DNA of 57,715 bases from a virus (taxonomy: Duplodnaviria > Caudoviricetes): positions 1 through 57,715 of the IMG/VR virus record IMGVR_UViG_3300032212_000007, one strand, 5' to 3'. The translations under genes were made by a program, and so were the position numbers. A model generated the notes under the pieces. The model made no database searches. It saw nothing but the letters and a program-made list of their open reading frames with translations, and was not told the DNA's origin. The number at the start of each line of letters is the position of its first letter. The stretch's first letter is position 1. Positions 1 through 57,715 of the stretch are shown here, in pieces.

Positions 1-87
1 TTGGAAAGAAGCTGAACCATATATTATGAAGGATGCTAAATGGGCTTATAGGTATGCTAGACATGTACTTGAAGCTCCTTGGAAAGA
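1..87. repeat. Terminal overlap identical to 57629-57715 (circular assembly overlap inside a 78-bp tandem repeat)
   Basis: First 87 nt match the last 87 nt exactly; the reading frame continues across the join. Confidence 0.9.
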
Positions 88-736
88 AGCTGAACCATAT
101 ATTATGAAGGATGCTAAATGGGCTTATTGTTATGCTAAAAATATACTTGAAGCTCCTTGGCAAGAAGCTGAACCATATATTATGACGGATACTAAATATA
201 CTTGCTGGTATGCTAAAGATGTACTTAAAGCTCCTTGGAAAGAAGCTGAACCATATATTATGAAGGATGCTGAATGGGCTTATTACTATGCTAGTTATAT
301 ACTTCAAGCTCCTTTTCCAGAAGCTGAACCATATATTAAAAAGGATGCTGAATGGGCTTATAGGTATGTTAGATATATACTTAAAGCTCCTTTTCCAGAA
401 GCTGAACCATATATTAAAAAGGATGCTGAATGGGCTTATAGGTATGCTAGATATATACTTAATACTCCTTTTCCAGAAGCTGAACCATATATTAAAAAGG
501 ATGCTAAATGGGCTTATTACTATGCTGAGTGGGTGCTTAGAGGTTCTTGGGAAGATGCTGAACCATATATTAGAAAAGATAAGTTCTATGCTCAAATGTA
601 TTTACAATATGTATGTAGAATCCCTTTTCCTGAGGGTGCTAAATATTATGAAACAGGTAAATCAATTCCTGAACCAGTATTAATGAGGTATATAAACGCA
701 AATATGCCTCAAGAAGCCGAGGAAAATGATGCATAA
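2..736 (+). CDS. 26-aa tandem-repeat protein, paralog D, 3' part (continues from 57384 across the contig join; about 326 aa in total)
   Basis: Repeats of WAYxYAxxVLxAP(F/W)xEAEPYIxK; in frame with the ORF starting at 57384 once the 87-nt overlap is removed; unique C-terminal extension. Confidence 0.85.
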   Translation, partial: WKEAEPYIMKDAKWAYRYARHVLEAPWKEAEPYIMKDAKWAYCYAKNILEAPWQEAEPYIMTDTKYTCWYAKDVLKAPWKEAEPYIMKDAEWAYYYASYILQAPFPEAEPYIKKDAEWAYRYVRYILKAPFPEAEPYIKKDAEWAYRYARYILNTPFPEAEPYIKKDAKWAYYYAEWVLRGSWEDAEPYIRKDKFYAQMYLQYVCRIPFPEGAKYYETGKSIPEPVLMRYINANMPQEAEENDA

Positions 737-950: not shown

Positions 951-1550
951 ATGACAAATAAATTTAAAGTAAGCGGAGATATAGTATCTCCATTTGCTCC
1001 TATTATTTTCAGACATAATTTATGTGAGAAAATGGCATGGAGTAATAAAGAAAAGAAATCTGTACCGAATCCTGAAGGTACATATAGTGTTACACAGCTT
1101 TTTGATCCTTCTAATAAAGAGCATAAAAAGTTTATAGATAAGTTAGAAGAGTTGAATCAGAAAGCATATGAATTAGGTGATCCTGATAATAAAATTAAGA
1201 CACTATATAAGACTAGTGAGAAATCTAAATCTGTACCAGAGGGAATGAGAGCTTATACATGGACCCAAGCAGGAGATCGTTCTCCAACTGTAAAGGATAT
1301 GCAGAAGAATGAATTACCTGATAGTATTGTTAATGAAATGTCTTCAGGCTCTAACATTAGAGTTGTTCTCTTCTATAAAGAGATTGACGCTAATGGCTGG
1401 GGAGGTATAAAACTATACCTTAGAACTGTGCAGGTAAAAGACCTTCAGAAGTTTGGTAGTGACGATAATCTACTGGATGATGATGATGATGGTTTTGTTC
1501 TTGATGAATCAGTTACAAATTCTGATCTGAGTGATGAGGACTTCATCTAA
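951..1550 (+). CDS. Single-stranded DNA-binding protein (T7 gp2.5-like)
   Basis: OB-fold-like motifs (GTYSVT, GSNIRV, GIKLYLRTVQV), acidic C-terminal tail ending DEDFI, directly upstream of the primase-helicase. Confidence 0.75.
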   Translation: MTNKFKVSGDIVSPFAPIIFRHNLCEKMAWSNKEKKSVPNPEGTYSVTQLFDPSNKEHKKFIDKLEELNQKAYELGDPDNKIKTLYKTSEKSKSVPEGMRAYTWTQAGDRSPTVKDMQKNELPDSIVNEMSSGSNIRVVLFYKEIDANGWGGIKLYLRTVQVKDLQKFGSDDNLLDDDDDGFVLDESVTNSDLSDEDFI

Positions 1551-5922: not shown

Positions 5923-6729
5923 ATGGTTAGGTTATTAATAGATGGGGATATTCTGATATATCAGACTAGTGTATCACTTCAAGTAAGCACTCCTATAAAC
6001 GAGATTATAGAATTAGAGGAACTTAAAAATGGGTTTCATAATAATTTCCTGACTAAGGAAGACGTTTCTGATATCATTGTTTCATGGGCCAATATAGATG
6101 ATGTGATGATGGAAGTTCATAGACGTGTAGATGCTTTAAAACGTAGATTTAAAACTGATAACATTATTATTACCTTATCAGACTTGAAAAACTTTAGGAA
6201 AGATGTTTTAGCTACATATAAGATGAATAGAAAGAATGTTATAAAGCCTGTATGCTTACCTTTTGTTAGAAAACATATTCAGCAATATTATCCGCATGTA
6301 ATATATCCGAGACTAGAGGCTGATGATGTGATGGGGATATTAGCTACTGATCCTGATAATAGTGAGGAACAGATTATTGTTTCTGATGATAAGGATTTAG
6401 AGCAAATACCGGGACGTTTATATAAGCCAATGACTAAGAAATTATTAACTATTACGGAGAAGCAAGGACAATACAAATGGTATGAACAAACACTGACAGG
6501 AGATGCTGTTGATAACTATATTGGATGTCCTAAAATAGGCCCAAAAAAAGCTAAACAAATATTAGATATTAACTTGACAGGTGAAGATGTTTGGAGTAAT
6601 ATTCTATCCACCTACCAAGGAGCAGGTTTAACAAAAGAAGATATGTTAGTGCAGGCCAATGTGGCAAGGATGTTAAAACATGGTGATTATAATATTGACA
6701 CTAATAAAATTAAACTATTTAAATATTAA
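5923..6729 (+). CDS. 5'-3' exonuclease (T7 gp6-like)
   Basis: LLIDGD, NFRK...YKMNR, LEADDVMG, SDDKDLEQIPG, GDAVDNYIGCPKIGPKKA. Confidence 0.93.
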   Translation: MVRLLIDGDILIYQTSVSLQVSTPINEIIELEELKNGFHNNFLTKEDVSDIIVSWANIDDVMMEVHRRVDALKRRFKTDNIIITLSDLKNFRKDVLATYKMNRKNVIKPVCLPFVRKHIQQYYPHVIYPRLEADDVMGILATDPDNSEEQIIVSDDKDLEQIPGRLYKPMTKKLLTITEKQGQYKWYEQTLTGDAVDNYIGCPKIGPKKAKQILDINLTGEDVWSNILSTYQGAGLTKEDMLVQANVARMLKHGDYNIDTNKIKLFKY

Positions 6730-6732
6730 GGA

Positions 6733-7296
6733 ATGAATATGACTAATATAATTGATTTCACTTCTGAAAAATCAAAACTTGCTTCTAAATCCGTTAAACC
6801 CCCTGAAACCGGTGATGACTATGATTTAGCCTCGTTAATGTCTACAGCCGATGAGGCAATAATCTATATGGATGTACAAGGTAATTATCCGCTTGATATT
6901 ACATGTATGAATACTGTGTTTAAAGTAAATAGAGATATTACCGCAGAGAATGTTGCATTACGTATGACTTTAATGCGTGAGGAATTTGAAGAGACTTATA
7001 AAGCTTTAGAAGGAGCCTTACATGATATAAAAAACACTGGTTCCATAGCGGACGAGACATATATAGAAATATTAGATGGACTTGTGGATCAGACAGTTAT
7101 TAATCTAGGCACAGCGGATATATTAAACATGGACTTTGACGGTGCTTGGGATGAGATTTTACAGAGTAACCTATCAAAGGTGGATACTGAGACTGGTAGA
7201 ATTGAGTATAGAGAAGATGGGAAGGTGTTGAAGGGAGCTAACTATAAAGCACCGGATTTAACTGAATATATTAACTTTCTTCAGGACTTGGAATAA
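6733..7296 (+). CDS. MazG-like / PRA-PH-family nucleotide pyrophosphohydrolase
   Basis: EEFEE...EILDGLVD...WDEILQSNLSK...YREDGKVLKG pattern. Confidence 0.75.
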   Translation: MNMTNIIDFTSEKSKLASKSVKPPETGDDYDLASLMSTADEAIIYMDVQGNYPLDITCMNTVFKVNRDITAENVALRMTLMREEFEETYKALEGALHDIKNTGSIADETYIEILDGLVDQTVINLGTADILNMDFDGAWDEILQSNLSKVDTETGRIEYREDGKVLKGANYKAPDLTEYINFLQDLE

Positions 7297-7634
7297 TGAA
7301 GACACAATCAGCTAAGGCAAAGGGACGTAGATTACAGCAGTGGGTACGTGATATGATCTACAAGACCTTTCCAGTACTGAAAGAAGGAGATGTAAGAAGT
7401 ACATCTATGGGAGCTGGAGGAGAAGATATACAATTATCCCCAAAGGCTAGGAAATCCTTCCCATATAGTGTGGAATGTAAGAGTAAGGCTAAATATGCAG
7501 TTTACAAGGATTATGACCAAGCTGTTAGTAATTGTGGTAAGTATCAGCCTTTATTAGTTATCAAAGCAGATAGAAGAGATCCTTTAGTGGTAATAGATGC
7601 TAAATACTTTTTTAAAATGGTTAAAAGGAAATAA
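7296..7634 (+). CDS. PD-(D/E)XK nuclease, probable Holliday junction resolvase
   Basis: SAKAKGRRLQ, SMGAGGEDI, SVECK motifs. Confidence 0.75.
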   Translation: MKTQSAKAKGRRLQQWVRDMIYKTFPVLKEGDVRSTSMGAGGEDIQLSPKARKSFPYSVECKSKAKYAVYKDYDQAVSNCGKYQPLLVIKADRRDPLVVIDAKYFFKMVKRK

Positions 7635-34773: not shown

Positions 34774-36858
34774 CTACGCTGCTAAATTCGCCATTGCTTT
34801 AAATACTGGTGCTGAGTAAGCTACTGCTGCTGTGCTGACAGTTGCATCACATACAGTGTCCACAACAACCGTTGTTCCTGTAACGCTGACAACCTTTTTA
34901 ACTCCTGTTACTCCCGCTATAGTAATATATACATTAGGTACTAGACCCAGTTCCGTAGATACCGTGATAGTTGCGGATGATGCCGTAGTATCGGCAGTTG
35001 TTGCTACTATCGTTCCATAAGTACCACTTTGAACACATGCCGTTCCTATTGATGAAGATGCGGTAGGTGTATCGTCAAACACTATATCACCTCTATACCA
35101 TGTCCTTTGGTACGAAGTTGTAGGTACGCTATTCGCACGATATATACTAAATTTCTCCCCATTCGCTGTGTCATCCCAGTCAAGTACTCTACCAGACCAT
35201 CTATTATCAGTTCCTGATGTCTCACCAATAGCATTAAGTGTGGTGTATGTACCATATATTGTGTTTCCTTTTACTGTAGTAGTAGGCCCAACCCTATTAT
35301 CAGTACTATGGAGGAAAAAAGAATAATGACAACTACTCTGTAGCTGATATATAACTCCTGCACAATCTTTAATGAGATTATTAGTAATCGTGGTGTAGAT
35401 TGTTTTGCGTATAAAGAAAACAGTCGATGCTGCGTTAATTATTGTATTACCATCTATTAAACATGATGTTAAGAAACCGTCGCCAACTTGTATTGCTGTA
35501 TCTGTATTTTCTATAACATTACCTTGTATTATATTAGCTTTATCATCATCTATAAATGATGTTCTGGATACTTGTACCCCATCTGTGACATTTCTAACCA
35601 GATTATCTTTAACTTTGAACCCTGTGACATTATCAGATACAAAAACGCCATATATTAATTTATCTGCTCCTGTTCCGTAACGTTCTTCACTCTGAATAAT
35701 ACGATTATCACTTACTGTTGTTGATTCTGTTCTAATAGATATGCCTGACATACTGCCATTAGTTACATTCCCTGTATCTATTACGTCATTACCTCTAATA
35801 ACATGCCCCACATCGGTTGTAATTACAGACGTATATGTTAATGTATTTAATGCCACTCTTGTGATAATTCCACCATATGGCGTGCCTGACTCTGCTGTAA
35901 CTCCATTTAATGCAGTACGCACTAGAGAATTATTAGTAACCATAACACCTAAAGTCCCACGGACATATATACCAGTTTCCCATGTATCGGATATCTTGTT
36001 GCCAGTTATTAACATTCTTCTCTGGAAAGTACTTCTGTCACCGGGGTCTGTTAATGTTCCTGTATATGCCTGTATACCAGCCTTAGGACCCTCTACAACA
36101 TTGTTACTAACAATTATTGGAGTTTCTCCCCAAGTCTGACTAATTGATATTCCTTGATCTAGCCCCGCAACAGAAACAAAGTTATTACTTATTATACCAT
36201 TATATGAAGAAGGAGTAACCACCCCCTGTAGCTGATCACTTGTAATACCTGCCGTTCCTGATAAATTAGTAGGGAAAGTTATAGTACCAGCATCAAGGCT
36301 TGCTATAGTTTTTCCAATATCAGCTATTATATTATTATCTAAAATTTTAAAGTCATTAGAATTATCATAAAAAACACCAATACTAAACTTATTCATTTTA
36401 CAATCTTTTATAGACCATCTTGAACAACCTGTAACCGATACACATGAATTTTGGTATATTATGGCTGAAGTAGGGAATGCTTTATCATCTGGGTCTTGAT
36501 TCCTGAAAGATAAGCCATCTATTGACCAATCATCTACACCGTTTGCATAAACTAAAGGATGATGATTAGCTCCAGCATCCGCTGATTTTAACCGCCCTTG
36601 TCCTGTCCAAATTACATTAGCTTTCTTTGTTATATAGCCATCTATCTCATATACACCCAAAGGGAAATATAGTGACACTGGTGACCCCTCAGTGACCGCC
36701 CTTGCTGCTGCTGCGTCTTCCGCTGCCTGTATATATGTTGTGTTGTTAGCTGCTGTTTCTAATGTGCTGGCACCATAGTCTAATATACTAAATGAAATAC
36801 GATCACCTAACGTGTATTTATCTCTCATATACCGACTTGTTACTTTTCTTCCTGTCAT
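34774..36858 (-). CDS. Tailspike with right-handed beta-helix (pectate lyase-like depolymerase)
   Basis: SILDYGA...IQAA...LYFPLGVY; repeated I.GN.I / V.NN beta-helix turns. Confidence 0.8.
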   Translation of the reverse strand: MTGRKVTSRYMRDKYTLGDRISFSILDYGASTLETAANNTTYIQAAEDAAAARAVTEGSPVSLYFPLGVYEIDGYITKKANVIWTGQGRLKSADAGANHHPLVYANGVDDWSIDGLSFRNQDPDDKAFPTSAIIYQNSCVSVTGCSRWSIKDCKMNKFSIGVFYDNSNDFKILDNNIIADIGKTIASLDAGTITFPTNLSGTAGITSDQLQGVVTPSSYNGIISNNFVSVAGLDQGISISQTWGETPIIVSNNVVEGPKAGIQAYTGTLTDPGDRSTFQRRMLITGNKISDTWETGIYVRGTLGVMVTNNSLVRTALNGVTAESGTPYGGIITRVALNTLTYTSVITTDVGHVIRGNDVIDTGNVTNGSMSGISIRTESTTVSDNRIIQSEERYGTGADKLIYGVFVSDNVTGFKVKDNLVRNVTDGVQVSRTSFIDDDKANIIQGNVIENTDTAIQVGDGFLTSCLIDGNTIINAASTVFFIRKTIYTTITNNLIKDCAGVIYQLQSSCHYSFFLHSTDNRVGPTTTVKGNTIYGTYTTLNAIGETSGTDNRWSGRVLDWDDTANGEKFSIYRANSVPTTSYQRTWYRGDIVFDDTPTASSSIGTACVQSGTYGTIVATTADTTASSATITVSTELGLVPNVYITIAGVTGVKKVVSVTGTTVVVDTVCDATVSTAAVAYSAPVFKAMANLAA

Positions 36859-36917: not shown

Positions 36918-38510
36918 TTAATAAACCGCCCATTGCTGATTAAAGTATTCCTCTAATATCTGCCTTTCATAGTCTAAGAGAGTCCCATCAATAACACCTA
37001 GTATGGCCATACTACCGCCAAAGGTTCTTGTAGTTAGTGAGGGGTTCCCTACATAAAACGCACCTAGTCCATAACTAAATGCCACCGTTACCGAATCAAG
37101 TTGATTTGTGCCATTAATCCATACTTTAGTGCTTGCTGAGGTCCCTTCAATTACTGCAAGGCCATAACTACCGTATGGAAAACTCGTTAAAGGAGTATAT
37201 AAACTTGTTGCACCTTGTCTTAATCTTACTCTATCAACCCCAGTAGCAACACCAGTATCTATATAATTACTTCCATTTGAGCCAAATACTTGCGAATCAT
37301 TTGTAGGCCCTGTGTTTTGGTTTATCACCATTATAACAGTTCTATCTTCTGACCCTGTTAGGTTAGGCATACTGATAGTATAGTCCAAGCCTTCATTGTT
37401 AGTTATATCAAAGTCAATAACGTTATATCCATTCTGAGTAGATGCATTTGTTGTTGGTCGCTCACTAGATGTTGTTTGGTCTACATGCACTGCGAAATCT
37501 GTCTGATCGTTCCACTTATCAACAGCCCCACTAGTGTCCTCTATCGTATCTGTGTCTTTTGCGTTTAGATACATAACAAAATTATTATTAATTATATCCA
37601 GTGCATTGTACTTCCATTTATTGATTAGATAGTTCTCTACCGTCTGCATTTCCGTTAAAGATAAAGCTCTATCATACATTATAATCTCATATACACTTCC
37701 GTCGAATGGAGTGATAGCAAGAAGTCTACCTACTTTAAACCCTGTATTTGTAGATAATTGCGTACTTACTGCGTCTGTAACCAGCTCTACGCCATCGCCC
37801 CTTATCAGTCTGCCTGAGGAGTTTAATTGAAACGTTAATACTCTATCTTCTAAGCTATATCCGCTTGCAACTGTTGCATCTAAGTCACTCCCATAATGCC
37901 CTAATGTCACTTGTGTAGCTGACCTATAACCGCAATGGAAATTCTGATTTACAGCAGCAGTTGTACCTCCCATTATCCATTGACCAGAAGCGTTGCTATT
38001 AGCCTTAGCCACCACAAAAACTGTATATTCTGTATTTGCAAGGAAGGTTGCATCTCCGTCCATTCTGTCATCAGTACCATCAAAATCTAAACCGTACTTA
38101 CTACCAAGCGTATTTATACCTCTGATAGGTTGTAGGCTCGATGTTCCTTGTGTGATATCTCTGGAATTACCAGACTTATCATCCACCTGACTAGGTGACT
38201 TGGCAACCTCCAGACTAGTTAAGGCTGCGTAAGTGGCTGTTAAAGTCTCTACTGTGTTTATCGTAGTGCCTTCGATACTAGCCACCGTATAAACATCCGC
38301 ACTATCAACCCTTATAGTCATACCTGCACGTGCTATTCTCGCCATTGTGGCGGAGGCTGTTAATACCGTTGTACTAATAGTACCCGATACCGTTTCTGTA
38401 GCCGTTTGATATGCTAATGTAACTGTTGTAGCATCGGCAGAGTCTAACCAAAGCTGTATGCTCGGAATATCTGAAGGTAATGTTGTCTTCTTATTAAAGC
38501 CTAATAACAT
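36918..38510 (-). CDS. Tandem LamG/ConA-like lectin-domain protein
   Basis: Two domains: LWLDSAD...DKSGNSR...FDGTDD...EIIMYDRALS..VENYLINKW, then MYLNAKD...LEEYFNQQW. Confidence 0.75.
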   Translation of the reverse strand: MLLGFNKKTTLPSDIPSIQLWLDSADATTVTLAYQTATETVSGTISTTVLTASATMARIARAGMTIRVDSADVYTVASIEGTTINTVETLTATYAALTSLEVAKSPSQVDDKSGNSRDITQGTSSLQPIRGINTLGSKYGLDFDGTDDRMDGDATFLANTEYTVFVVAKANSNASGQWIMGGTTAAVNQNFHCGYRSATQVTLGHYGSDLDATVASGYSLEDRVLTFQLNSSGRLIRGDGVELVTDAVSTQLSTNTGFKVGRLLAITPFDGSVYEIIMYDRALSLTEMQTVENYLINKWKYNALDIINNNFVMYLNAKDTDTIEDTSGAVDKWNDQTDFAVHVDQTTSSERPTTNASTQNGYNVIDFDITNNEGLDYTISMPNLTGSEDRTVIMVINQNTGPTNDSQVFGSNGSNYIDTGVATGVDRVRLRQGATSLYTPLTSFPYGSYGLAVIEGTSASTKVWINGTNQLDSVTVAFSYGLGAFYVGNPSLTTRTFGGSMAILGVIDGTLLDYERQILEEYFNQQWAVY

Positions 38511-41064: not shown

Positions 41065-41094
41065 GGGAACATAACACAAACAGGAGTTAAACAA

Positions 41095-42933: not shown

Positions 42934-43016
42934 TCGTATAGACATTGATATTGAAGATGTAAAAATATACCTGCATGATATCTATCTCAAATATTTTAAA
43001 AACAGGAGCTAAACAA

Positions 43017-43661
43017 ATGACGTTACTAGACTATGATTTAAAAGAACTTATAAAGAATGCTAAACAGAGCGGAGCTTGTGGATATGGTTTAAAAGAGCTT
43101 AAAGAGCTTAAAGATATTAAACAAGCATTAAACCACCCTCAAGCTGCTTATTGGCTGTATTACTATGCTAAATATGTACTTAAAGCTCCTTGGAAAGAAG
43201 CTGAACCATATATTATGAAGGATACTGAATGGGCTTATTGGTATGCTAGATTTGTACTCAAAGCTCCTTGGAAAGAAGCTGAACCATATATTATGAAGGA
43301 TACTGAATGGGCTTATTACTATGCTGAATATGTACTTGAAGCTCCTTTTCCAGAAGCTGAACCATATATTATGAAGGATACTGAATGGGCTTATTACTAT
43401 GCTGAATATGTACTTGAAGCTCCTTTTCCAGAAGCTGAACCATATATTAAAAAGAATGCTAAATGGGCTTATTACTATGCTAGATTTGTACTTAAAGCTC
43501 CTTTTCCAGAAGCTGAACCATATATTATGAAGGAAGCTAAATGGGCTTATTGGTATGCTTATCACGTACTTAAAGCCCCTTTTCCAGAAGCTGAACCATA
43601 TATTACGAAAAGCCACTACTACAAGGAACTATACACTGACCACTTTAAAAACAGGAGCTAA
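43017..43661 (+). CDS. 26-aa tandem-repeat protein, paralog A (6 EAEPYI units)
   Basis: N-cap MTLLDYDLKELIKNA..., 78-bp repeats, C-cap ...DHFKNRS; RBS CAGGAG. Confidence 0.9.
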   Translation: MTLLDYDLKELIKNAKQSGACGYGLKELKELKDIKQALNHPQAAYWLYYYAKYVLKAPWKEAEPYIMKDTEWAYWYARFVLKAPWKEAEPYIMKDTEWAYYYAEYVLEAPFPEAEPYIMKDTEWAYYYAEYVLEAPFPEAEPYIKKNAKWAYYYARFVLKAPFPEAEPYIMKEAKWAYWYAYHVLKAPFPEAEPYITKSHYYKELYTDHFKNRS

Positions 43662-43665
43662 ACAA

Positions 43666-43959
43666 ATGTATATACCGATAACACAAAACATGTTTATAAA
43701 TAAATTCAAAACATTTAAAACGCATGGATTTAGTAAACAAGGATTAAAAGCCTTATACAAATATTATCAAGAATTAGAAGAAGATACAGGCCAATTAATA
43801 AGGCTGGATGTTAAAGCTATCTGTACAGAATGGTATGAACACCCCATTGAAACCGCTTTAAAAGCTTATGGCATACAAACAGTAGATCAACTATATGACT
43901 ACACGCCCGTGATAGAAATCCTAAATACATCTACAATAATTTACCAGCCATATTATTAG
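43666..43959 (+). CDS. Hypothetical protein, paralog of 41700-41984
   Basis: MYIPITQNMFINKFK...FSKQGLKALYKY...IRLDVKAICTEW. Confidence 0.7.
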   Translation: MYIPITQNMFINKFKTFKTHGFSKQGLKALYKYYQELEEDTGQLIRLDVKAICTEWYEHPIETALKAYGIQTVDQLYDYTPVIEILNTSTIIYQPYY

Positions 43960-43971
43960 GAGATTAGAACC

Positions 43972-44223
43972 ATGCTTAAAAAGAAGCCTAAATATATAGC
44001 AGTACATAATAACGACGAAGAATTACTAGGAATCATCACGGGTGATATAGCATTCCAACAAAGACTTCAAGCATTAATTGAAGATGAGTATTCAGTAGAG
44101 TTTACAGCTATAATCGATATAGAGCCTATAAAATATCAAATAAACACTATTACTATTGATATATATGACTCATTACTTTATAGTAAAGTACCGCTAACAT
44201 TATCCGAAACATTTCTATATTAA
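43972..44223 (+). CDS. Hypothetical protein
   Basis: AGGAG RBS, 83 aa. Confidence 0.55.
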   Translation: MLKKKPKYIAVHNNDEELLGIITGDIAFQQRLQALIEDEYSVEFTAIIDIEPIKYQINTITIDIYDSLLYSKVPLTLSETFLY

Positions 44224-44235
44224 GGAGCTAAACAA

Positions 44236-45114
44236 ATGACGTTACTAGACTATGATTTAAAAGAGCTTATAAAGAATGCTAAACAGAGTGGGGCTTGTGA
44301 AAATGAGTTAAAAGAGCTAAAAGAGCTTAAAGATATTAAACAGGCTTTAAACCACCCTCAAGCTGCTTTTTGGCTGTATTGGTATGCTAGAGATGTACTT
44401 GAAGCTCCTTTTCCAGAAGCTGAACCATATATTATGAAGGATGTTAAATGGGCTTATAAGTATACTAGAGATGTACTTGAAGCTCCTTGGAAAGAAGCTG
44501 AACCATATATTATGAAGGAAGCTGAATGGGCTTATTACTATGCTGTAACTGCACTTAAAGCTCCTTGGAAAGAAGCTGAACCGTATATTAAAAAAGATGT
44601 TAAATGGGCTTATTACTATGCTAAATATGTACTTCAAGCTCCTTGGAAAGAGGCTGAACCATATATTATGAAGGATGCTAAATGGGCTTATTACTATGCT
44701 ATAAATGTACTTAAAGCTCCTTGGAAAGAAGCTGAACCATATATTATGAAGGATGCTAAATGGGCTTGTTACTATGCTAGATATGTACTTAAAGCTCCTT
44801 TTCCAGAAGCTGAACCATATATTATGAAGGAAGCTAAATGGGCTTATTGGTATGCTTATCACGTACTTAAAGCCCCTTTTCCAGAAGCTGAACCATATAT
44901 TATGAAGGATGCTGAATCGGCGTGTAATTATGCTAGATATATACTCAAAGCTCCTTTTCCAGAAGCTGAACCATATATTATGAAGGATGCTAAATGGGCT
45001 TATAGGTATGCTAGATATATACTTAATACTCCTTTTCCAGAAGCTGAACCATATATTAAGGAAAATAGCTACTACTATGAATGTTACACTGATCACTTTA
45101 AAAACAGGAGCTAA
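44236..45114 (+). CDS. 26-aa tandem-repeat protein, paralog B (9 EAEPYI units)
   Basis: Same N-cap, 78-bp repeats, C-cap ENSYYYECYTDHFKNRS. Confidence 0.9.
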   Translation: MTLLDYDLKELIKNAKQSGACENELKELKELKDIKQALNHPQAAFWLYWYARDVLEAPFPEAEPYIMKDVKWAYKYTRDVLEAPWKEAEPYIMKEAEWAYYYAVTALKAPWKEAEPYIKKDVKWAYYYAKYVLQAPWKEAEPYIMKDAKWAYYYAINVLKAPWKEAEPYIMKDAKWACYYARYVLKAPFPEAEPYIMKEAKWAYWYAYHVLKAPFPEAEPYIMKDAESACNYARYILKAPFPEAEPYIMKDAKWAYRYARYILNTPFPEAEPYIKENSYYYECYTDHFKNRS

Positions 45115-45118
45115 ACAA

Positions 45119-45742
45119 ATGATATTACTAACAATTATTGGACTACCATTACTAGCCTTTTTAAACCGTTTAAAGGGCGTAAAAGTAAAACAACTAGGCT
45201 GGACAAGAGTGCCACTAGTATATACAATAACTGGCCTATATGCTGCCCTGCTTGCCTATACAGTCGGACTCCCGCCACACATTGTCCTAATCTGTCTCGG
45301 CTATGGCTTAACCTACGCACTATGGAGACAAAAAGGGCCTACATTAGCTTGGATAGGTGGTCAAAGTTGGTGGAATCCTCATTGGGAAAAGCCTAACCAT
45401 AAATATATAAATATACTTTTAAAGAAATTTCATAGACTTGATATAGATGATGTAGATATATACTATAACAGCTTACGAATTAGATTAGGCAATATAGGCG
45501 GAGCATATAGGGGATTCCTCTACTTTATTCCTTTTATGCTGTTAGCTGGCTTTATACATCCTATTGGATATTTAACAGCATTGACAAGCCTTTTCTATGG
45601 TTATATACATACTATAACAGGCGAATACGGACCGTGGGGAACTATGAAAGATATGGTGAAAAGAGCAGAGATACTTAGCGGTGTAATAATACTATACCCA
45701 AATATCGTTTTACCGATTTTAATGCGTGGACTAATTACTTAA
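45119..45742 (+). CDS. Multi-pass membrane protein (start MILLTII)
   Basis: Several hydrophobic helices; RBS CAGGAG. Confidence 0.65.
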   Translation: MILLTIIGLPLLAFLNRLKGVKVKQLGWTRVPLVYTITGLYAALLAYTVGLPPHIVLICLGYGLTYALWRQKGPTLAWIGGQSWWNPHWEKPNHKYINILLKKFHRLDIDDVDIYYNSLRIRLGNIGGAYRGFLYFIPFMLLAGFIHPIGYLTALTSLFYGYIHTITGEYGPWGTMKDMVKRAEILSGVIILYPNIVLPILMRGLIT

Positions 45743-46806: not shown

Positions 46807-47049
46807 ATGAATAATAAAGATATAAAGATGGAAGTGATAATATTTGATGATGGTGACGAATGTACATATGAGGATGTTACATTTAATGTGGTATATTATA
46901 CATTCAAAGAACATCATACAGAAAATATTATATATACATGGACAGAAATAGTTGACTATAGTTACGATAACAAGTACAGTAACTTAGAACAATTAAATAC
47001 ACACTTGGAAAAGTCATTATATGACGAATTGGAGGAGATTGAAGAATGA
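46807..47049 (+). CDS. Hypothetical acidic protein
   Basis: 80-aa ORF coupled to its neighbours. Confidence 0.5.
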
Positions 47050-47537
47050 ATGAAAGAGAACTTAGACAAGTATTAGAGCAGCATGTTCTTTGGTTAGAGG
47101 GTAAAGATGGGGGGAGGAGGGCTGACTTGAGAGAGGTTAACTTGAGAGGTACTGACTTTAGGGATACTAACTTGAGAGGTGCTGACTTTATGGGTGCTGA
47201 CTTGAGAAATGCTGACTTGGGAGGTGCTGACTTGAGAGGTGCTGACTTTATGGGTGCTGACTTTATGGGAGCTAACTTGATGGGAGCTAACTTGATGGGA
47301 GCTAACTTGATGGGGGTTGATTTGAGGGATGTCGTAGGTAACGGTATAGAAATAAAACACAGTAGTGAGTATCATTACCATCTGTCGTGGACAAAAGACA
47401 CTTTAGCTATCGGCTGTAAACAATATCTCATAGAAGACTGGAATAGTTTTAGTGACGAAGAAATAGATACTATGGCCCATGGTGCCCTTGATTGGTGGAA
47501 AGAATATAAAGATGAAGTTATGGAGTTAGTAAAATGA
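47046..47537 (+). CDS. Pentapeptide repeat protein
   Basis: About 14 A(D/N)Lxx units (15-bp DNA repeats); C-terminal LAIGCKQY...WW domain. Confidence 0.9.
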
Positions 47538-54710: not shown

Positions 54711-55200
54711 CTGTAACCTGTAACTATTCTTTTCCGCCACATCCGGAGGATGTCACAGTTAAACACCTGTTTAACATCCTTTTAACTGTGTTTAACTACT
54801 TTAAAAGACTTTTAACTATATGTTTTAAAGGGAAATACAGAAGCTGTACCGTAACTAGAACCTTTTAACTTCCATTAAAAAAGGGCTTTAAGCAGCTTTA
54901 AACTCCTTATAGCCCTGTAACCTGTAACTATTCTTTTCCGCCACATCCGGAGGATGTCACAGTTAAACACCTGTTTAACATCCTTTTAACTACTTTAAAA
55001 GACTTTTAACTATCTTTTAACTATCTTTTAACATCTGTTTAACTGTGTTTAACTACTTTAAAAGTCTTTTAACTATCTTTTAACTTTGTTTCTTAAAGGG
55101 GTCTTTACAGGATGTAACGTAACTAGAAACTTTTAACATCTGTTAAACAGCCTTTAAAGCTGCCTTATAGCTACCTATCAGCTGCCTCTCAGCTACCCCC
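54711..55200. repeat. Non-coding tandem duplication with palindromes and TTTAAC(T/A) iterons; candidate replication origin or ncRNA
   Basis: 77-bp identical copies at 54711-54787 and 54915-54991, each with ACATCC-GGA-GGATGT and GTTAAACA-CC-TGTTTAAC; more than 10 TTTAAC(T/A) units. Confidence 0.8.
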
Positions 55201-55752: not shown

Positions 55753-56037
55753 ATGTATACCACGAAAAAAGAAGCTTATAGAGAAGCTAGATATCAGAGC
55801 AAGAATGATTATACATCTGCTATGATACATGGCTTTATAGATGAATTCACTATTGAAGTGGAAAAACATTTACCTGACATATCACAGAGTGAAATACTAG
55901 AGATATTCCAGAATGTAAATAAACAATTTGGAATTGGTATAAAATTTTTAGATTTAGTGATTGACATCCTAAAAGAATATTGGTATTACTACTCCTTAGT
56001 AGACTTTTCTGCTATTTATCAGGAGCTAAACAAATGA
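55753..56037 (+). CDS. Hypothetical protein
   Basis: GAGGA RBS; ATGA overlap with paralog C. Confidence 0.55.
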   Translation: MYTTKKEAYREARYQSKNDYTSAMIHGFIDEFTIEVEKHLPDISQSEILEIFQNVNKQFGIGIKFLDLVIDILKEYWYYYSLVDFSAIYQELNK

Positions 56038-56597
56038 CATTACTAGACTATGATTTAAAAGAGCTTATAAAGAATGCTGAACAGAGTGGAGCTTGTGGAT
56101 ATGGTTTAAAAGAGCTTAAAAAGTTTAAAGATATTAAACAGGCTTTAAACCACCCTCAAGCTGCTTTTTGGCTGTATTGGTATGCTAGAAATGTACTTAA
56201 AGCCCCTTTTCCAGAAGCTGAACCATATATTATGAAGAATACTAAATGGCCTTATTACTATGCTATAAATGTACTTAAAGCCCCTTTTCCAGAAGCTGAA
56301 CCATATATTATGAAGGGAAGTGAATGGACTTATTACTATGCTAGAGATGTACTTAAAGCCCCTTTTCCAGAAGCTGAACCATATATTATGAAGGATGCTA
56401 ACTGGGCTTATTGGTATGCTTATCACGTACGTAAAGCCCCTTTTCCAGAAGCTGAACCATATATCATGAAGGCCGCTCAATGGGCTTATTACTATGCTAG
56501 AAATGTACTTAAAGCTCCTTTTCCAGAAGCTGAACCATATATTAAGGAAAATAGCTACTACTACGGACTTTACACTAATTACTTTAACCAAACTTAG
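56034..56597 (+). CDS. 26-aa tandem-repeat protein, paralog C (5 EAEPYI units)
   Basis: Same N-cap, 78-bp repeats, C-cap ENSYYYGLYTNYFNQT. Confidence 0.9.
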   Translation: MTLLDYDLKELIKNAEQSGACGYGLKELKKFKDIKQALNHPQAAFWLYWYARNVLKAPFPEAEPYIMKNTKWPYYYAINVLKAPFPEAEPYIMKGSEWTYYYARDVLKAPFPEAEPYIMKDANWAYWYAYHVRKAPFPEAEPYIMKAAQWAYYYARNVLKAPFPEAEPYIKENSYYYGLYTNYFNQT

Positions 56598-57383: not shown

Positions 57384-57715
57384 ATGTTAGACTATGACTT
57401 AAAAGAACTTATAAAGAATGTTGAACAGAGTGGAGCTTGTGAAAATGAGTTAAAAGAGCTAAAAGAGTTTAAAGATATTAAACAGGCTTTAAACCACCCT
57501 CAAGCTGCTTTTTGGCTGTATTGGTATACTGTAAAAGTACTCAAAGCTCCTTGGCAAGAAGCTGAACCATATATTATGAAGGATGCTGAATGGGCTTATA
57601 GGTATGCTAGACATGTACTTGAAGCTCCTTGGAAAGAAGCTGAACCATATATTATGAAGGATGCTAAATGGGCTTATAGGTATGCTAGACATGTACTTGA
57701 AGCTCCTTGGAAAGA
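57384..57715 (+). CDS. 26-aa tandem-repeat protein, paralog D, 5' part (runs off the end and continues at the window start)
   Basis: MLDYDLKELIKNVEQSGACENELKE... followed by repeats; no stop before the end. Confidence 0.85.
   Translation, partial: MLDYDLKELIKNVEQSGACENELKELKEFKDIKQALNHPQAAFWLYWYTVKVLKAPWQEAEPYIMKDAEWAYRYARHVLEAPWKEAEPYIMKDAKWAYRYARHVLEAPWK

What the first reader, a model, noticed from the sequence alone, without database searches (positions are those of the whole stretch)
43487..45059. Repeat units and caps are swapped between paralogs (diversification by recombination, without RT)
Seen: 43487-43605 (A) and 44784-44902 (B) are identical over 119 nt, covering the EAKWAYWYAYHVLK unit with the distinctive codons cac-gta and gcc-cct; C carries the same WAYWYAYHV core. 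44993-45059 (B) equals 429-495 (D) over 67 nt (WAYRYARYILNTP). YYYAINVLK occurs in both B and C. Caps are mosaic: GACGYGL in A and C versus GACENEL in B and D; NAKQ and KELKD in A and B versus E-Q and FKD in C and D; DHFKNRS in A and B versus IKENSYYY in B and C. Adjacent duplicated units also occur (A units 2-3, D units 2-3). Inference: gene conversion or unequal crossover through the invariant framework builds new combinations, resembling an antigenic-variation or VLR-type library rather than a DGR.
Basis: partly seen in the sequence, partly recalled or inferred. Interest (0 to 1): 0.82.

Follow-up and report, generated by a model that had tools for sequence, protein, structure and literature searches.

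The report
Recombining helical-repeat gene family in phage
A metagenomic phage carries four sister genes for helical repeat proteins whose near-identical 26-residue units differ mainly at a few surface positions and show signs of DNA exchange between copies, a familiar way of evolving binding proteins seen here in an unstudied viral family.

Summary
All quoted identities and motifs are in the sequence: 119 nt are identical between genes A and B and 67 nt between B and D, both maximal. There are 29 units of 78 nt in four paralogs.

The genes encode two-helix alpha-solenoids (AlphaFold pLDDT 93.9). They belong to a large, unnamed family (4114 representatives; nearest Atlas clusters mostly viral).

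Units are about 83% identical in DNA both within and between genes. Amino-acid change concentrates at codons 4, 7, 8, 11 and 24-26, on one face of the long helix.

Exchange has statistical support:
- The A-B tract beats 5000 of 5000 permutations.
- That tract has 0 of 41 silent differences, against 6 of 38 in the A-B N-caps.
- Homoplasy tests on the units are significant.

The limits are these:
- Unit order is collinear between paralogs, so shuffling of order is not shown.
- Only one gene pair is strongly significant.
- All four copies are complete genes, there are no silent cassettes, and no RT or adenine bias was found.
- The contig is an unverified metagenome assembly that ends inside gene D.

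Best reading: concerted evolution plus diversifying selection, as in "high internal conservation" repeats. It is not a VLR-type programmed system. Function is unknown.

The parts
43017..43661 (+). Gene A: 214-aa repeat protein. N-cap, 6 units (43152-43619), C-cap.
   Evidence: ORF and translation; unit table. The start was chosen at the ATG that follows the shared RBS motif.
44236..45114 (+). Gene B: 292-aa repeat protein. N-cap, 9 units (44371-45072), C-cap.
   Evidence: AlphaFold2 model with alignment: pLDDT 93.9, two helices per unit.
56034..56597 (+). Gene C: 187-aa repeat protein with 5 units (56169-56558).
57384..57715 (+). Gene D, 5' part: N-cap, D1, D2 and 47 nt of the next unit. It runs off the contig end.
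   Evidence: The frame continues at the window start.
1..736 (+). Gene D, 3' part: units D3-D8, degenerate D9 (509-586) and a distinct acidic C-terminal tail. Bases 1-87 repeat 57629-57715.
43487..43605 (+). A copy of the 119-nt tract identical to B. It sits in a 150-nt stretch (43456-43605) with only 2 mismatches to B.
   Evidence: Permutation tests.
44784..44902 (+). B copy of the 119-nt tract (end of B6 plus most of B7).
44993..45059 (+). B copy of the 67-nt tract identical to D (429-495). It is followed by a C-like stretch and then an A-like stretch of the C-cap.
429..495 (+). D copy (unit D8) of the 67-nt tract.
43004..43019 (+). 16-nt RBS-plus-ATG motif AGGAGCTAAACAAATG. It also occurs at 43653-43668, 44223-44238, 45106-45121 and 56021-56036, so it brackets genes A and B and precedes C.
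   Evidence: 5 exact copies plus one at 41082 with 1 mismatch; 0.04 expected by chance.
951..1550 (+). Gp2.5-like ssDNA-binding/annealing protein. Candidate catalyst of short-homology recombination (inferred).
   Evidence: phrog_112, E = 7e-16.
5923..6729 (+). Exonuclease (phrog_107). Candidate partner in single-strand annealing (inferred).
   Evidence: E = 5.4e-56.
7296..7634 (+). RusA-like Holliday junction resolvase.
   Evidence: phrog_244, E = 1.1e-14.

Best explanation
Four paralogous genes lie in the small-gene region of a metagenome-assembled phage that has a T7-like replication module. That these genes are expressed early is inferred from position. Each encodes a stand-alone alpha-solenoid protein built from 5 to at least 9 copies of a 26-residue, two-helix unit. 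The unit belongs to a very large, uncharacterised repeat family that appears to be largely viral.

The units evolve in the 'high internal conservation' mode:
- Tandem duplication and loss of units, and homologous exchange (gene conversion or partial duplication) through the 40-65-nt invariant framework, keep all units about 83% identical in DNA within and between the four genes.
- Amino-acid replacements are retained at codons 4, 7, 8, 11 and 24-26. These fall on one exposed face of the long helix and so form a variable binding stripe along the solenoid.

Shown:
- the anatomy of genes and units;
- the position of the variable codons;
- at least one recent A-B exchange tract;
- mosaicism below the level of a unit;
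- absence of RT.

Inferred:
- The phage's own annealing protein and exonuclease (or host RecA) catalyse the exchange.
- The proteins are cytoplasmic binders of host or defence targets.

This is not a programmed cassette system.
For: Anatomy and exact identities.

Variation. It is concentrated in a few codons while the framework codons are nearly invariant. For example, Tyr at column 4 is TAC in 13 of 13 units, whereas Tyr at columns 3, 5 and 20 is always TAT. Allele counts are 33 non-synonymous against 2 synonymous at the hypervariable columns (site-normalised ratio 2.9), and 19 against 9 in the framework (ratio 0.55).

Unit identity. DNA identity is 83.0% within genes and 82.4% between genes, while amino-acid identity is about 70%. 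Adjacent units are more alike than non-adjacent ones, 11.0 against 14.2 differences, one-sided p = 0.006.

The A-B tract:
- Longest matching run is 62 polymorphic sites, reached in 0 of 5000 permutations.
- Divergence is 23 of 204 in N-cap plus first unit against 2 of 141 in the tract, p = 2.5e-4.
- Silent differences are 6 of 38 against 0 of 41, p = 0.0099.

Other exchange signals:
- B-D tract, p = 0.008-0.023.
- The 3' end of B is mosaic.
- All four combinations of TAC/TGG (column 4) with WK/FP (columns 14-15, four base differences) occur in 3 to 8 units each.
- PHI is significant at base level and at codon level.
- The three well-supported clades of the unit tree all mix genes.

Structure. 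Model pLDDT is 93.9, with a 12-residue helix covering unit positions 25-10 and a 7-residue helix covering positions 15-21. On a helical wheel, positions 26, 4, 7, 8 and 11 fall within one 100-degree arc. This is my own calculation.

Family. The same variable columns (4, 7, 8) in otherwise 72-83% self-identical units recur in the unrelated family members P0019, P0016, P0023 and P0017, and in the family consensus.

Other:
- No RT and no adenine bias.
- The phage encodes a gp2.5-like annealing protein, an exonuclease and a RusA-like resolvase.
- Logan unitigs inside the A/B tract and inside the A3/A4 repeat have about twice the depth of the flanks (49.3 and 54.3 against 24-27). This is weak support for two genuine copies.
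Against: - There is one genome only and no close relative to compare. The best protein identity is about 50%. The collection searches found nothing.
- The contig is an unverified metagenome assembly. It breaks inside gene D, and only k = 31 contigs of the source run were available, so the order of units could not be checked.
- Unit order is collinear in all pairwise alignments. Differential unit loss after whole-gene duplication therefore explains the arrangement by itself.
- Four of six gene pairs have no significant tract, and B-D is marginal after correcting for six tests.
- The three incompatible partitions in the N-cap rest on 2, 5 and 1 sites. The minority ones are single transitions that could be homoplasy.
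- Mean silent divergence of units (5.9%) is only twofold below that of the N-caps (11.7%) and rests on small, non-independent counts.
- PHI can be inflated by selection that links neighbouring codons.
- Function, timing of expression and any binding partner are untested.
- The near-neutral pI of 5.3-8.3 gives no pointer to a ligand.
Confidence: 0.6

Rival explanations
1. Whole-gene duplication followed only by unit loss or gain within each gene and by point mutation under selection. Shared tracts are orthologous units that happen not to have changed, and there has been no exchange between paralogs.
For: - All close unit pairs are collinear.
- The WK-type units come before the FP-type units in A, B and D.
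- Four of six pairs show no significant tract.
- The unit tree is mostly unresolved, with 15 of 24 inner branches open.
Against: - The A-B tract has 0 of 41 silent differences although the A-B N-caps differ at 6 of 38 silent positions.
- The nearest paralog of B changes along the gene: C at unit 1, D at unit 2, A at units 6-7, D then C then A at the 3' end.
- Non-orthologous units in different genes are no more diverged than units within a gene.
- The four-gamete violation involves a marker with four base differences.
Confidence: 0.17
2. Assembly artefact. Short-read assembly of near-identical repeats produced chimeric or collapsed arrays, so the mosaics, or some of them, do not exist in any one genome.
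For: - The contig ends inside the D2/D3 identical units, and its 'terminal repeat' is just that overlap.
- k = 31 contigs of the one holder run, which may be the window's own sample, fragment throughout the arrays.
- Short-read assemblies of highly similar repeats are known to fail (passages of PMC11761791).
Against: - All four genes are intact in-frame ORFs with proper caps.
- The longest repeated word is 119 nt. Whether the assembler's word size could resolve that is not known.
- Unitigs inside the two longest repeats have about double depth while the flanks are single depth, as expected for two true copies.
- Chimeras would not create the codon-specific variability that also appears in unrelated family members.
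Confidence: 0.1
3. Programmed, high-frequency diversification, of the VLR or antigenic-variation type. Donor copies would rewrite an expressed copy during infection and so generate variants within the population.
For: - Invariant framework with variable units.
- Identical 16-nt motifs bracket A and B.
- The unresolved unit number in D could reflect heterogeneity in the population.
- The phage encodes annealing and exonuclease functions.
Against: - There are no truncated or silent cassettes: all 9 matches in the record lie in the four complete genes.
- No dedicated recombinase or deaminase was identified among the proteins scanned. That scan covered 10 + 10 + 10 proteins, not every ORF.
- No alternative junctions were seen in the contigs laid. 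Loose ends and the one 'goes back' joint are cross-mapping between paralogs. Contigs cannot show rare variants.
Confidence: 0.07
4. Targeted mutagenesis of DGR type, or another mutator acting on specific codons.
For: Variation is confined to a few codons within otherwise near-identical DNA.
Against: - No RT domain in the record: PF00078, no match at E <= 1.
- Substitutions against the unit consensus fall on A in 68 of 253 cases, and A makes up 25 of 78 consensus bases.
- Variants are whole-codon alleles shared between units, not scattered changes.
Confidence: 0.01

Closest known systems
High-internal-conservation (HIC) repeats of fungal NLR genes (Podospora het-d/het-e/het-r WD40 domains)
   Same: - Tandem units are over 80% identical.
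- Variability is confined to a few positions (on the interaction surface: recalled, not in the passages read).
- Concerted evolution by unequal crossing-over and recombination between paralogs has been proposed.
- Short-read assembly is difficult.
Source: passages of PMC11761791 read. The primary papers it cites were not read.
   Different: - Here the fold is a two-helix solenoid, not a WD40 propeller.
- The proteins stand alone, with no NACHT or effector domain.
- The carrier is a phage, not a fungus.
- Polymorphism in repeat number among individuals could not be shown.
TAL effector repeats (recalled, not tested)
   Same: Near-identical tandem helical units whose specificity residues sit at fixed positions. 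The family evolves by recombination among repeats and among paralogs.
   Different: - The unit is 26 residues, not 33-35.
- There are at least four variable positions on a helix face rather than a two-residue loop.
- There is no evidence of DNA binding: pI is 5.3-8.3.
- There is no sequence or significant structural match.
Pfam PF24591 Phage_YunG-like (function unknown)
   Same: It is the only curated family that the proteins touch. Whole-protein scores are 27.4 (A), 32.1 (B) and 34.1 (C) bits against a cut-off of 27.
   Different: - The matches cover only profile positions 23-49 of 99, repeated.
- D scores 23.3, below the cut-off.
- None (A, C, D) or one (B) of the matched stretches is significant on its own.
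- The other Pfam and PHROG hits to the repeat are short, and nearly all have no stretch that passes on its own.
Generic alpha-solenoids (HEAT, ARM, PUF, TPR, Sel1, designed helical repeats)
   Same: Stacked helix-turn-helix units. These are the top structural neighbours.
   Different: No match is significant. Foldseek E >= 0.02 with TM <= 0.24. VIA Z <= 6.7, which that tool rates as ordinary for helical repeats. The 26-residue period is shorter than any of these classes; that comparison is recalled.
Lamprey VLR assembly and bacterial or parasite antigenic-variation cassettes
   Same: Modular repeat units with an invariant framework, recombined without RT.
   Different: - There is no expression site with silent partial donors.
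- There is no evidence of somatic or within-population rearrangement (not decisive).
- By genome position the products are probably not virion proteins. A cytoplasmic location was judged by eye from the N-terminus, with no predictor run.

Membership tests
HIC-type repeat evolution (concerted evolution plus diversifying selection) | Tandem units at least about 80% identical at DNA level within a gene | tested here: met
   Mean identity is 83.0% within genes (89 pairs) and 82.4% between genes (289 pairs), excluding degenerate D9.
HIC-type repeat evolution (concerted evolution plus diversifying selection) | Variability concentrated at a few positions, with an excess of amino-acid-changing variants, on an exposed surface | tested here: met
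   Entropy peaks at columns 4, 7, 8, 11 and 24-26. There are 33 non-synonymous against 2 synonymous alleles there, normalised ratio 2.9, against 0.55 in the framework. The positions fall on one helical face by wheel calculation from the model. Surface exposure was not measured on coordinates.
HIC-type repeat evolution (concerted evolution plus diversifying selection) | Exchange of repeats between paralogs | tested here: inconclusive
   Strong for A-B (0 of 5000 permutations; silent 0 of 41 against 6 of 38). Marginal for B-D. Absent for four pairs. One unverified assembly only.
HIC-type repeat evolution (concerted evolution plus diversifying selection) | Repeat-number polymorphism among individuals | not testable with these tools
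   Only k = 31 contigs of one run were available. The contig end inside D2/D3 is a hint only.
VLR-type or antigenic-variation cassette system | One expressed locus plus incomplete silent donor cassettes | tested here: not met
   A six-frame search of the whole record gives 9 matches, all inside the four complete ORFs. A, B and C each have the same RBS-plus-ATG motif.
VLR-type or antigenic-variation cassette system | Rearranged variants within one population | not testable with these tools
   No raw reads were served, and contigs drop rare variants.
Diversity-generating retroelement | Reverse transcriptase near the variable region | tested here: not met
   PF00078: no match at E <= 1 in the 57.7-kb record, while the control genomes rang.
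Diversity-generating retroelement | Adenine-specific substitutions relative to a template repeat | tested here: not met
   68 of 253 mismatches fall at consensus A, and A is 25 of 78 consensus bases.
Pfam PF24591 Phage_YunG-like | Whole-protein score above the curated cut-off, with the domain covered | tested here: inconclusive
   A, B and C are above 27 bits and D is below. Only profile positions about 23-49 of 99 are matched.
HEAT/ARM/PUF/TPR/Sel1 solenoid families | Significant sequence-profile or structural match | tested here: inconclusive
   No Pfam repeat family matched. Foldseek E >= 0.02. VIA Z <= 6.7. The PDB profile search found no hit at E <= 1.

The most novel reading that the evidence does not exclude
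The paralogs are a phage-encoded, RT-independent library of evolvable binders. On this reading they are early cytoplasmic solenoids whose variable helix face recognises host takeover targets or anti-phage defence proteins. The phage's own short-homology annealing machinery (gp2.5-like protein plus exonuclease) reshuffles units, within and between the copies, often enough to produce unit-number and unit-combination variants in natural populations. The same mode would operate across a family with thousands of members, including contigs that carry 11-12 tandem paralogs (L010, L012).
Probability: 0.2. Interest if true: 0.8.

Novelty: new variant of a known kind. Interest (0 to 1): 0.5.

Why it matters
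Hypervariable repeat proteins kept in step by recombination are a classic solution for fast-evolving recognition, as in fungal and plant immune receptors and TAL effectors. Phage diversification is usually discussed in terms of DGRs and tail-fibre mosaics.

Here the same evolutionary mode appears in non-structural genes of a phage, in a large and unnamed protein family that appears to be largely viral. The family has a confidently predicted but unmatched solenoid fold and clear candidate specificity positions.

If the proteins bind host or defence factors, the family would be a tractable system in two ways. Fixed-framework binders would be available for reading a recognition code. It would also be a second, RT-free route to targeted protein diversity in phages.

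As it stands, the evidence comes from one assembled genome, and the function is unknown.

Tried and rejected
- Close relatives for an orthologue comparison. Nothing was found by tblastn or megablast against the phage collection, nor by the search for related loci with protein B or the 530-aa protein at 36918-38510.
- Exact-pattern scans. They returned only contigs about 70% identical in DNA (L009-L014).
- Primase-helicase relatives. 80 loci at 38% identity or less were fetched, and 0 of 80 carry the repeat motif within the fetched flanks.
- Reads. One holder run was found. It may be the window's own sample, and only its k = 31 contigs were served. They fragment in the arrays and neither confirm nor refute the unit order. 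Its one 'goes back' joint and its loose ends are paralog cross-mapping.
- The single-sequence fold was poor, pLDDT 57, and was replaced by the alignment-based model.
- NG86 pN/pS over whole units (about 1.2) was set aside. Codons that differ at several bases inflate the synonymous count. I used counts at positions with the same amino acid, and allele counts, instead.
- The whole-unit shuffle null is confounded by the identical D2/D3 pair: 6 of 500 shuffles reach 119.
- The max-chi-square test on the 3' end of B (0 of 5000) is inflated beyond position 107 by a 2-nt indel in C and by non-homologous flanks.
- The unit tree is too weakly resolved to decide between orthology and exchange.
- Pfam and PHROG scans of homologues' N-terminal domains gave only families of unknown function.
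- Literature searches for a phage precedent found none: listings only. Only PMC11761791 was opened, and only as passages. Supplementary files were not consulted.
Full report
**What is there**

The window is a whole IMG/VR virus record of 57,715 nt with 36.7% G+C. It has a minus-strand block of large ORFs at 13.8-40.5 kb, of which two were identified: an SU10-type portal and a beta-helix protein that is a possible tailspike. Its plus-strand replication module is T7-like: a gp2.5-like SSB/annealing protein, a primase-helicase relative (named from its ORF translation and tblastn relatives, no family scan), family A DNA polymerase, exonuclease, RusA-like resolvase, ribonucleotide reductase and thymidylate synthase. 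There is also a long plus-strand run of small genes of unknown function.

In that run lie four paralogs:
- A: 43017-43661.
- B: 44236-45114.
- C: 56034-56597.
- D: begins at 57384, runs off the contig end and continues at the window start to 736.

Each has three parts. First comes a 45-residue N-cap. Then come 6, 9, 5 and 9 units (the ninth unit of D is degenerate). Each unit is 78 nt / 26 aa with the pattern W-A-Y-x-Y-A-x-x-V-L-x-A-P-[WK/FP]-E-A-E-P-Y-I-x-K-x-x-x. Last comes a C-cap.

The record's 'direct terminal repeat' is an 87-nt overlap that falls inside the identical tandem units D2/D3. The genome may well be circularly permuted or complete. The number of D2-type units is unresolved.

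**The observation**

The 119-nt A/B match and the 67-nt B/D match are exact and maximal.

These are the longest inter-gene exact matches. The others of 55 nt or more are B-C 65, C-D 62, B-D 59 (all three in the conserved 3' part of the N-cap) and B-D 55.

Shuffling each codon column among the 29 units gave a longest inter-gene run of 52 nt on average and 85 nt at most. None of 500 shuffles reached 119, and 11 of 500 reached 67.

**What the proteins are**

The frame is real. B finds 646 proteins at E <= 0.001 among the candidates scored in the word-indexed search. It finds 4114 cluster representatives in the exhaustive search, 142 of them at E <= 1e-30 and some over 2000 residues long. Best identities are about 50%, so there are no near relatives.

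Look-alike clusters in the ESM Atlas are 'hypothetical protein' and mostly viral, Uroviricota.

No curated repeat family covers the unit. The whole-protein scores of A, B and C just pass the cut-off of Pfam PF24591 (Phage_YunG-like, function unknown), but only through short repeated matches to profile positions 23-49 of 99. The other Pfam and PHROG hits to the repeat, in these proteins and in homologues, are equally short, and nearly all have no stretch that passes on its own; the fuller PHROG matches lie in homologues' N-terminal domains, in families of unknown function.

With an 88-sequence alignment, AlphaFold2 gives a confident model (pLDDT 93.9, pTM 0.87). It is a regular solenoid with a 12-residue helix (unit positions 25 to 10) and a 7-residue helix (positions 15-21) per unit.

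The model has no significant solved counterpart:
- Foldseek: best E = 0.02, TM <= 0.24.
- VIA-align: Z <= 6.7, with HEAT, PPR, PUF, Sel1 and designed repeats tied.
- Profile search of PDB sequences: no hit at E <= 1.

**Pattern of variation**

Framework codons are almost invariant, down to codon choice. Tyr at column 4 is TAC in 13 of 13 units, while Tyr at columns 3, 5 and 20 is always TAT.

Columns 4, 7, 8, 11 and 24-26 carry 5 to 8 different residues each. Columns 14-15 are bimodal: TGG-AAA (WK) or TTT-CCA (FP).

Counting alleles gives:
- Hypervariable columns: 33 non-synonymous against 2 synonymous variants, site-normalised ratio 2.9.
- Framework: 19 against 9, ratio 0.55.

DNA identity between units (83%) exceeds amino-acid identity (70%).

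On a helical wheel, positions 26, 4, 7, 8 and 11 fall within a 100-degree arc. The conserved W1, A2, Y3, Y5, A6, V9 and L10 occupy the opposite side. Stacked over nine units, the variable residues would form a continuous stripe rich in Tyr, Trp, Arg, Lys and Glu.

The same columns vary in the family consensus. They also vary in four unrelated members whose own units are 72-83% identical to each other: P0019, P0016, P0023 and P0017. This is therefore a family trait and not a peculiarity of this phage.

**Is there exchange between paralogs?**

For:

(i) Collinear unit alignments were permuted over polymorphic sites. The A-B pair has a run of 62 matching polymorphic sites that no permutation reaches (0 of 5000). 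B-D has a run of 35, p = 0.008-0.023 before correction for six pairs.

(ii) A and B differ at 23 of 204 positions in the N-cap plus first unit, but at 2 of 141 in the A5-A6 / B6-B7 block, p = 2.5e-4. At silent positions alone the figures are 6 of 38 against 0 of 41, p = 0.0099. The block is therefore younger than the genes' caps, even though it contains the fastest-evolving codons.

(iii) B's nearest paralog changes along its length:
- C at unit 1 (6 differences).
- D at unit 2 (5 differences).
- A at units 6-7.
- D for the first 67 nt of unit 9.
- C for the next stretch into the cap.
- A for the distal cap and the 3' flank.

(iv) The N-cap shows all three possible 2:2 partitions in the order AD|BC (1 site), AB|CD (1), AC|BD (5 clustered sites), AB|CD (1).

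(v) Within units, all four combinations of TAC/TGG at column 4 with WK/FP occur in 3-8 units each. Neighbouring informative sites or codons are more compatible than distant ones: PHI, 0 of 2000 at base level, and at codon level 0 of 5000 for two window sizes and p = 0.0002 for the third.

(vi) Units are no more alike within a gene than between genes. The three well-supported clades of the unit tree each mix genes.

(vii) Adjacent units are more alike than non-adjacent ones (11.0 against 14.2 differences, p = 0.006), as tandem duplication predicts.

Against, or limiting:
- Every close inter-paralog pair is collinear, so no shuffling of unit order is shown. Unit loss after whole-gene duplication explains the arrangement.
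- Four of six pairs have no significant tract.
- The minority N-cap partitions are single transitions.
- The tree is mostly unresolved.
- PHI can be helped by selection that links nearby codons.
- Everything rests on one metagenome assembly.

The only public run that holds the stretch is served as k = 31 contigs, which fragment in the arrays. Their one useful feature is depth. Unitigs inside the A/B tract and the A3/A4 repeat have about twice the depth of the flanking single-copy contigs (49.3 and 54.3 against 24-27). That fits two real copies, but it is weak evidence.

**Mechanism**

There is no reverse transcriptase and no adenine bias, so a DGR is excluded.

There are no partial cassettes: all nine matches in the record lie in the four complete genes. 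A, B and C start with the same 16-nt RBS-plus-ATG motif, and the motif recurs immediately after A and B. It occurs five times exactly, with 0.04 expected. This suggests that whole cassettes were duplicated from RBS to RBS.

The anatomy therefore does not fit a programmed VLR or antigenic-variation system. It fits concerted evolution plus diversifying selection, the 'high internal conservation' mode described for fungal NLR repeat domains. There, unequal crossing-over and recombination between paralogs are thought to keep units over 80% identical while four surface positions vary (passages of PMC11761791).

The phage's gp2.5-like annealing protein, exonuclease and RusA-like resolvase are plausible catalysts for exchange through 40-65-nt identities. 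That step is inference.

**Function**

The genes lie among small genes on the replication strand, not in the minus-strand block that holds the portal and beta-helix genes. By eye the N-terminus shows no signal sequence. The proteins are 19-23% aromatic, with pI 5.3-8.3.

Many homologues fuse the repeats to an N-terminal domain of about 230 residues and unknown function. Metagenome contigs L010 and L012 carry 11-12 tandem paralogs each.

My best guess is intracellular binders of host or defence proteins, with specificity set by the variable helix face. Nothing here tests that.

The 80 most similar primase-helicase loci (38% identity or less) lack the repeat in their fetched flanks. It behaves as an accessory family.

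**Verdict**

It is a new variant of a known kind of evolution, found in an uncharacterised, apparently largely viral protein family. It is of moderate interest. The decisive data would be long reads and related genomes.

Noticed in passing
window 1-87 and 57629-57715: The record's 'direct terminal repeat', which is the basis of its 100% completeness call, is an 87-nt overlap inside two identical tandem repeat units of gene D. A 9-nt overlap (one more unit) fits equally well, so completeness and unit count are both uncertain.
   Followed up: partly
window 47046-47537 (+): A 163-aa pentapeptide-repeat protein (PF00805, E = 9.5e-23). Its gene carries a 15-nt tandem repeat of about 13 copies at 47117-47310.
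   Followed up: partly
window 54711-55085: A region without long ORFs contains a 77-nt exact direct repeat (54711 and 54915) and about 10.6 copies of an 11-nt unit TTTAACTATCT (54974-55085). It may be an origin or a regulatory array.
   Followed up: no
window 43004-43019, 43653-43668, 44223-44238, 45106-45121, 56021-56036 (and 41082 with 1 mismatch): An identical 16-nt RBS-plus-ATG motif brackets genes A and B and precedes C. It also starts the two unrelated downstream genes. This suggests cassette duplication or insertion from RBS to RBS.
   Followed up: partly
L010 (whole, 12.1 kb) and L012 (whole, 12.3 kb): Two metagenome contigs from one sample carry 11-12 tandem paralogous genes of the same repeat family. 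They have a different N-cap (MKSLDELL...KRLNPEYEE) and a C-cap of the W/Y-x-x-Y type. Exact matches between their paralogs reach 77 nt at most.
   Followed up: partly
window 44347-45096 (-), 43128-43616 (-), 2-595 (-), 267-683 (+): Long ORFs on the opposite strand and in an alternative frame run through all the repeat arrays. They are by-products of a stop-free periodic sequence. Homologues support only the WAYxYA frame.
   Followed up: yes
window 34774-36858 (-): A 694-aa protein with a right-handed beta-helix (PF13229, E = 9.8e-15), likely a tailspike or depolymerase.
   Followed up: no
P0001, P0003, P0009, P0019 (homologues): Many family members fuse the repeats to a conserved N-terminal domain of about 230 residues with a T-x-W-C motif. 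It matches only PHROGs of unknown function (phrog_28193, phrog_17056).
   Followed up: partly
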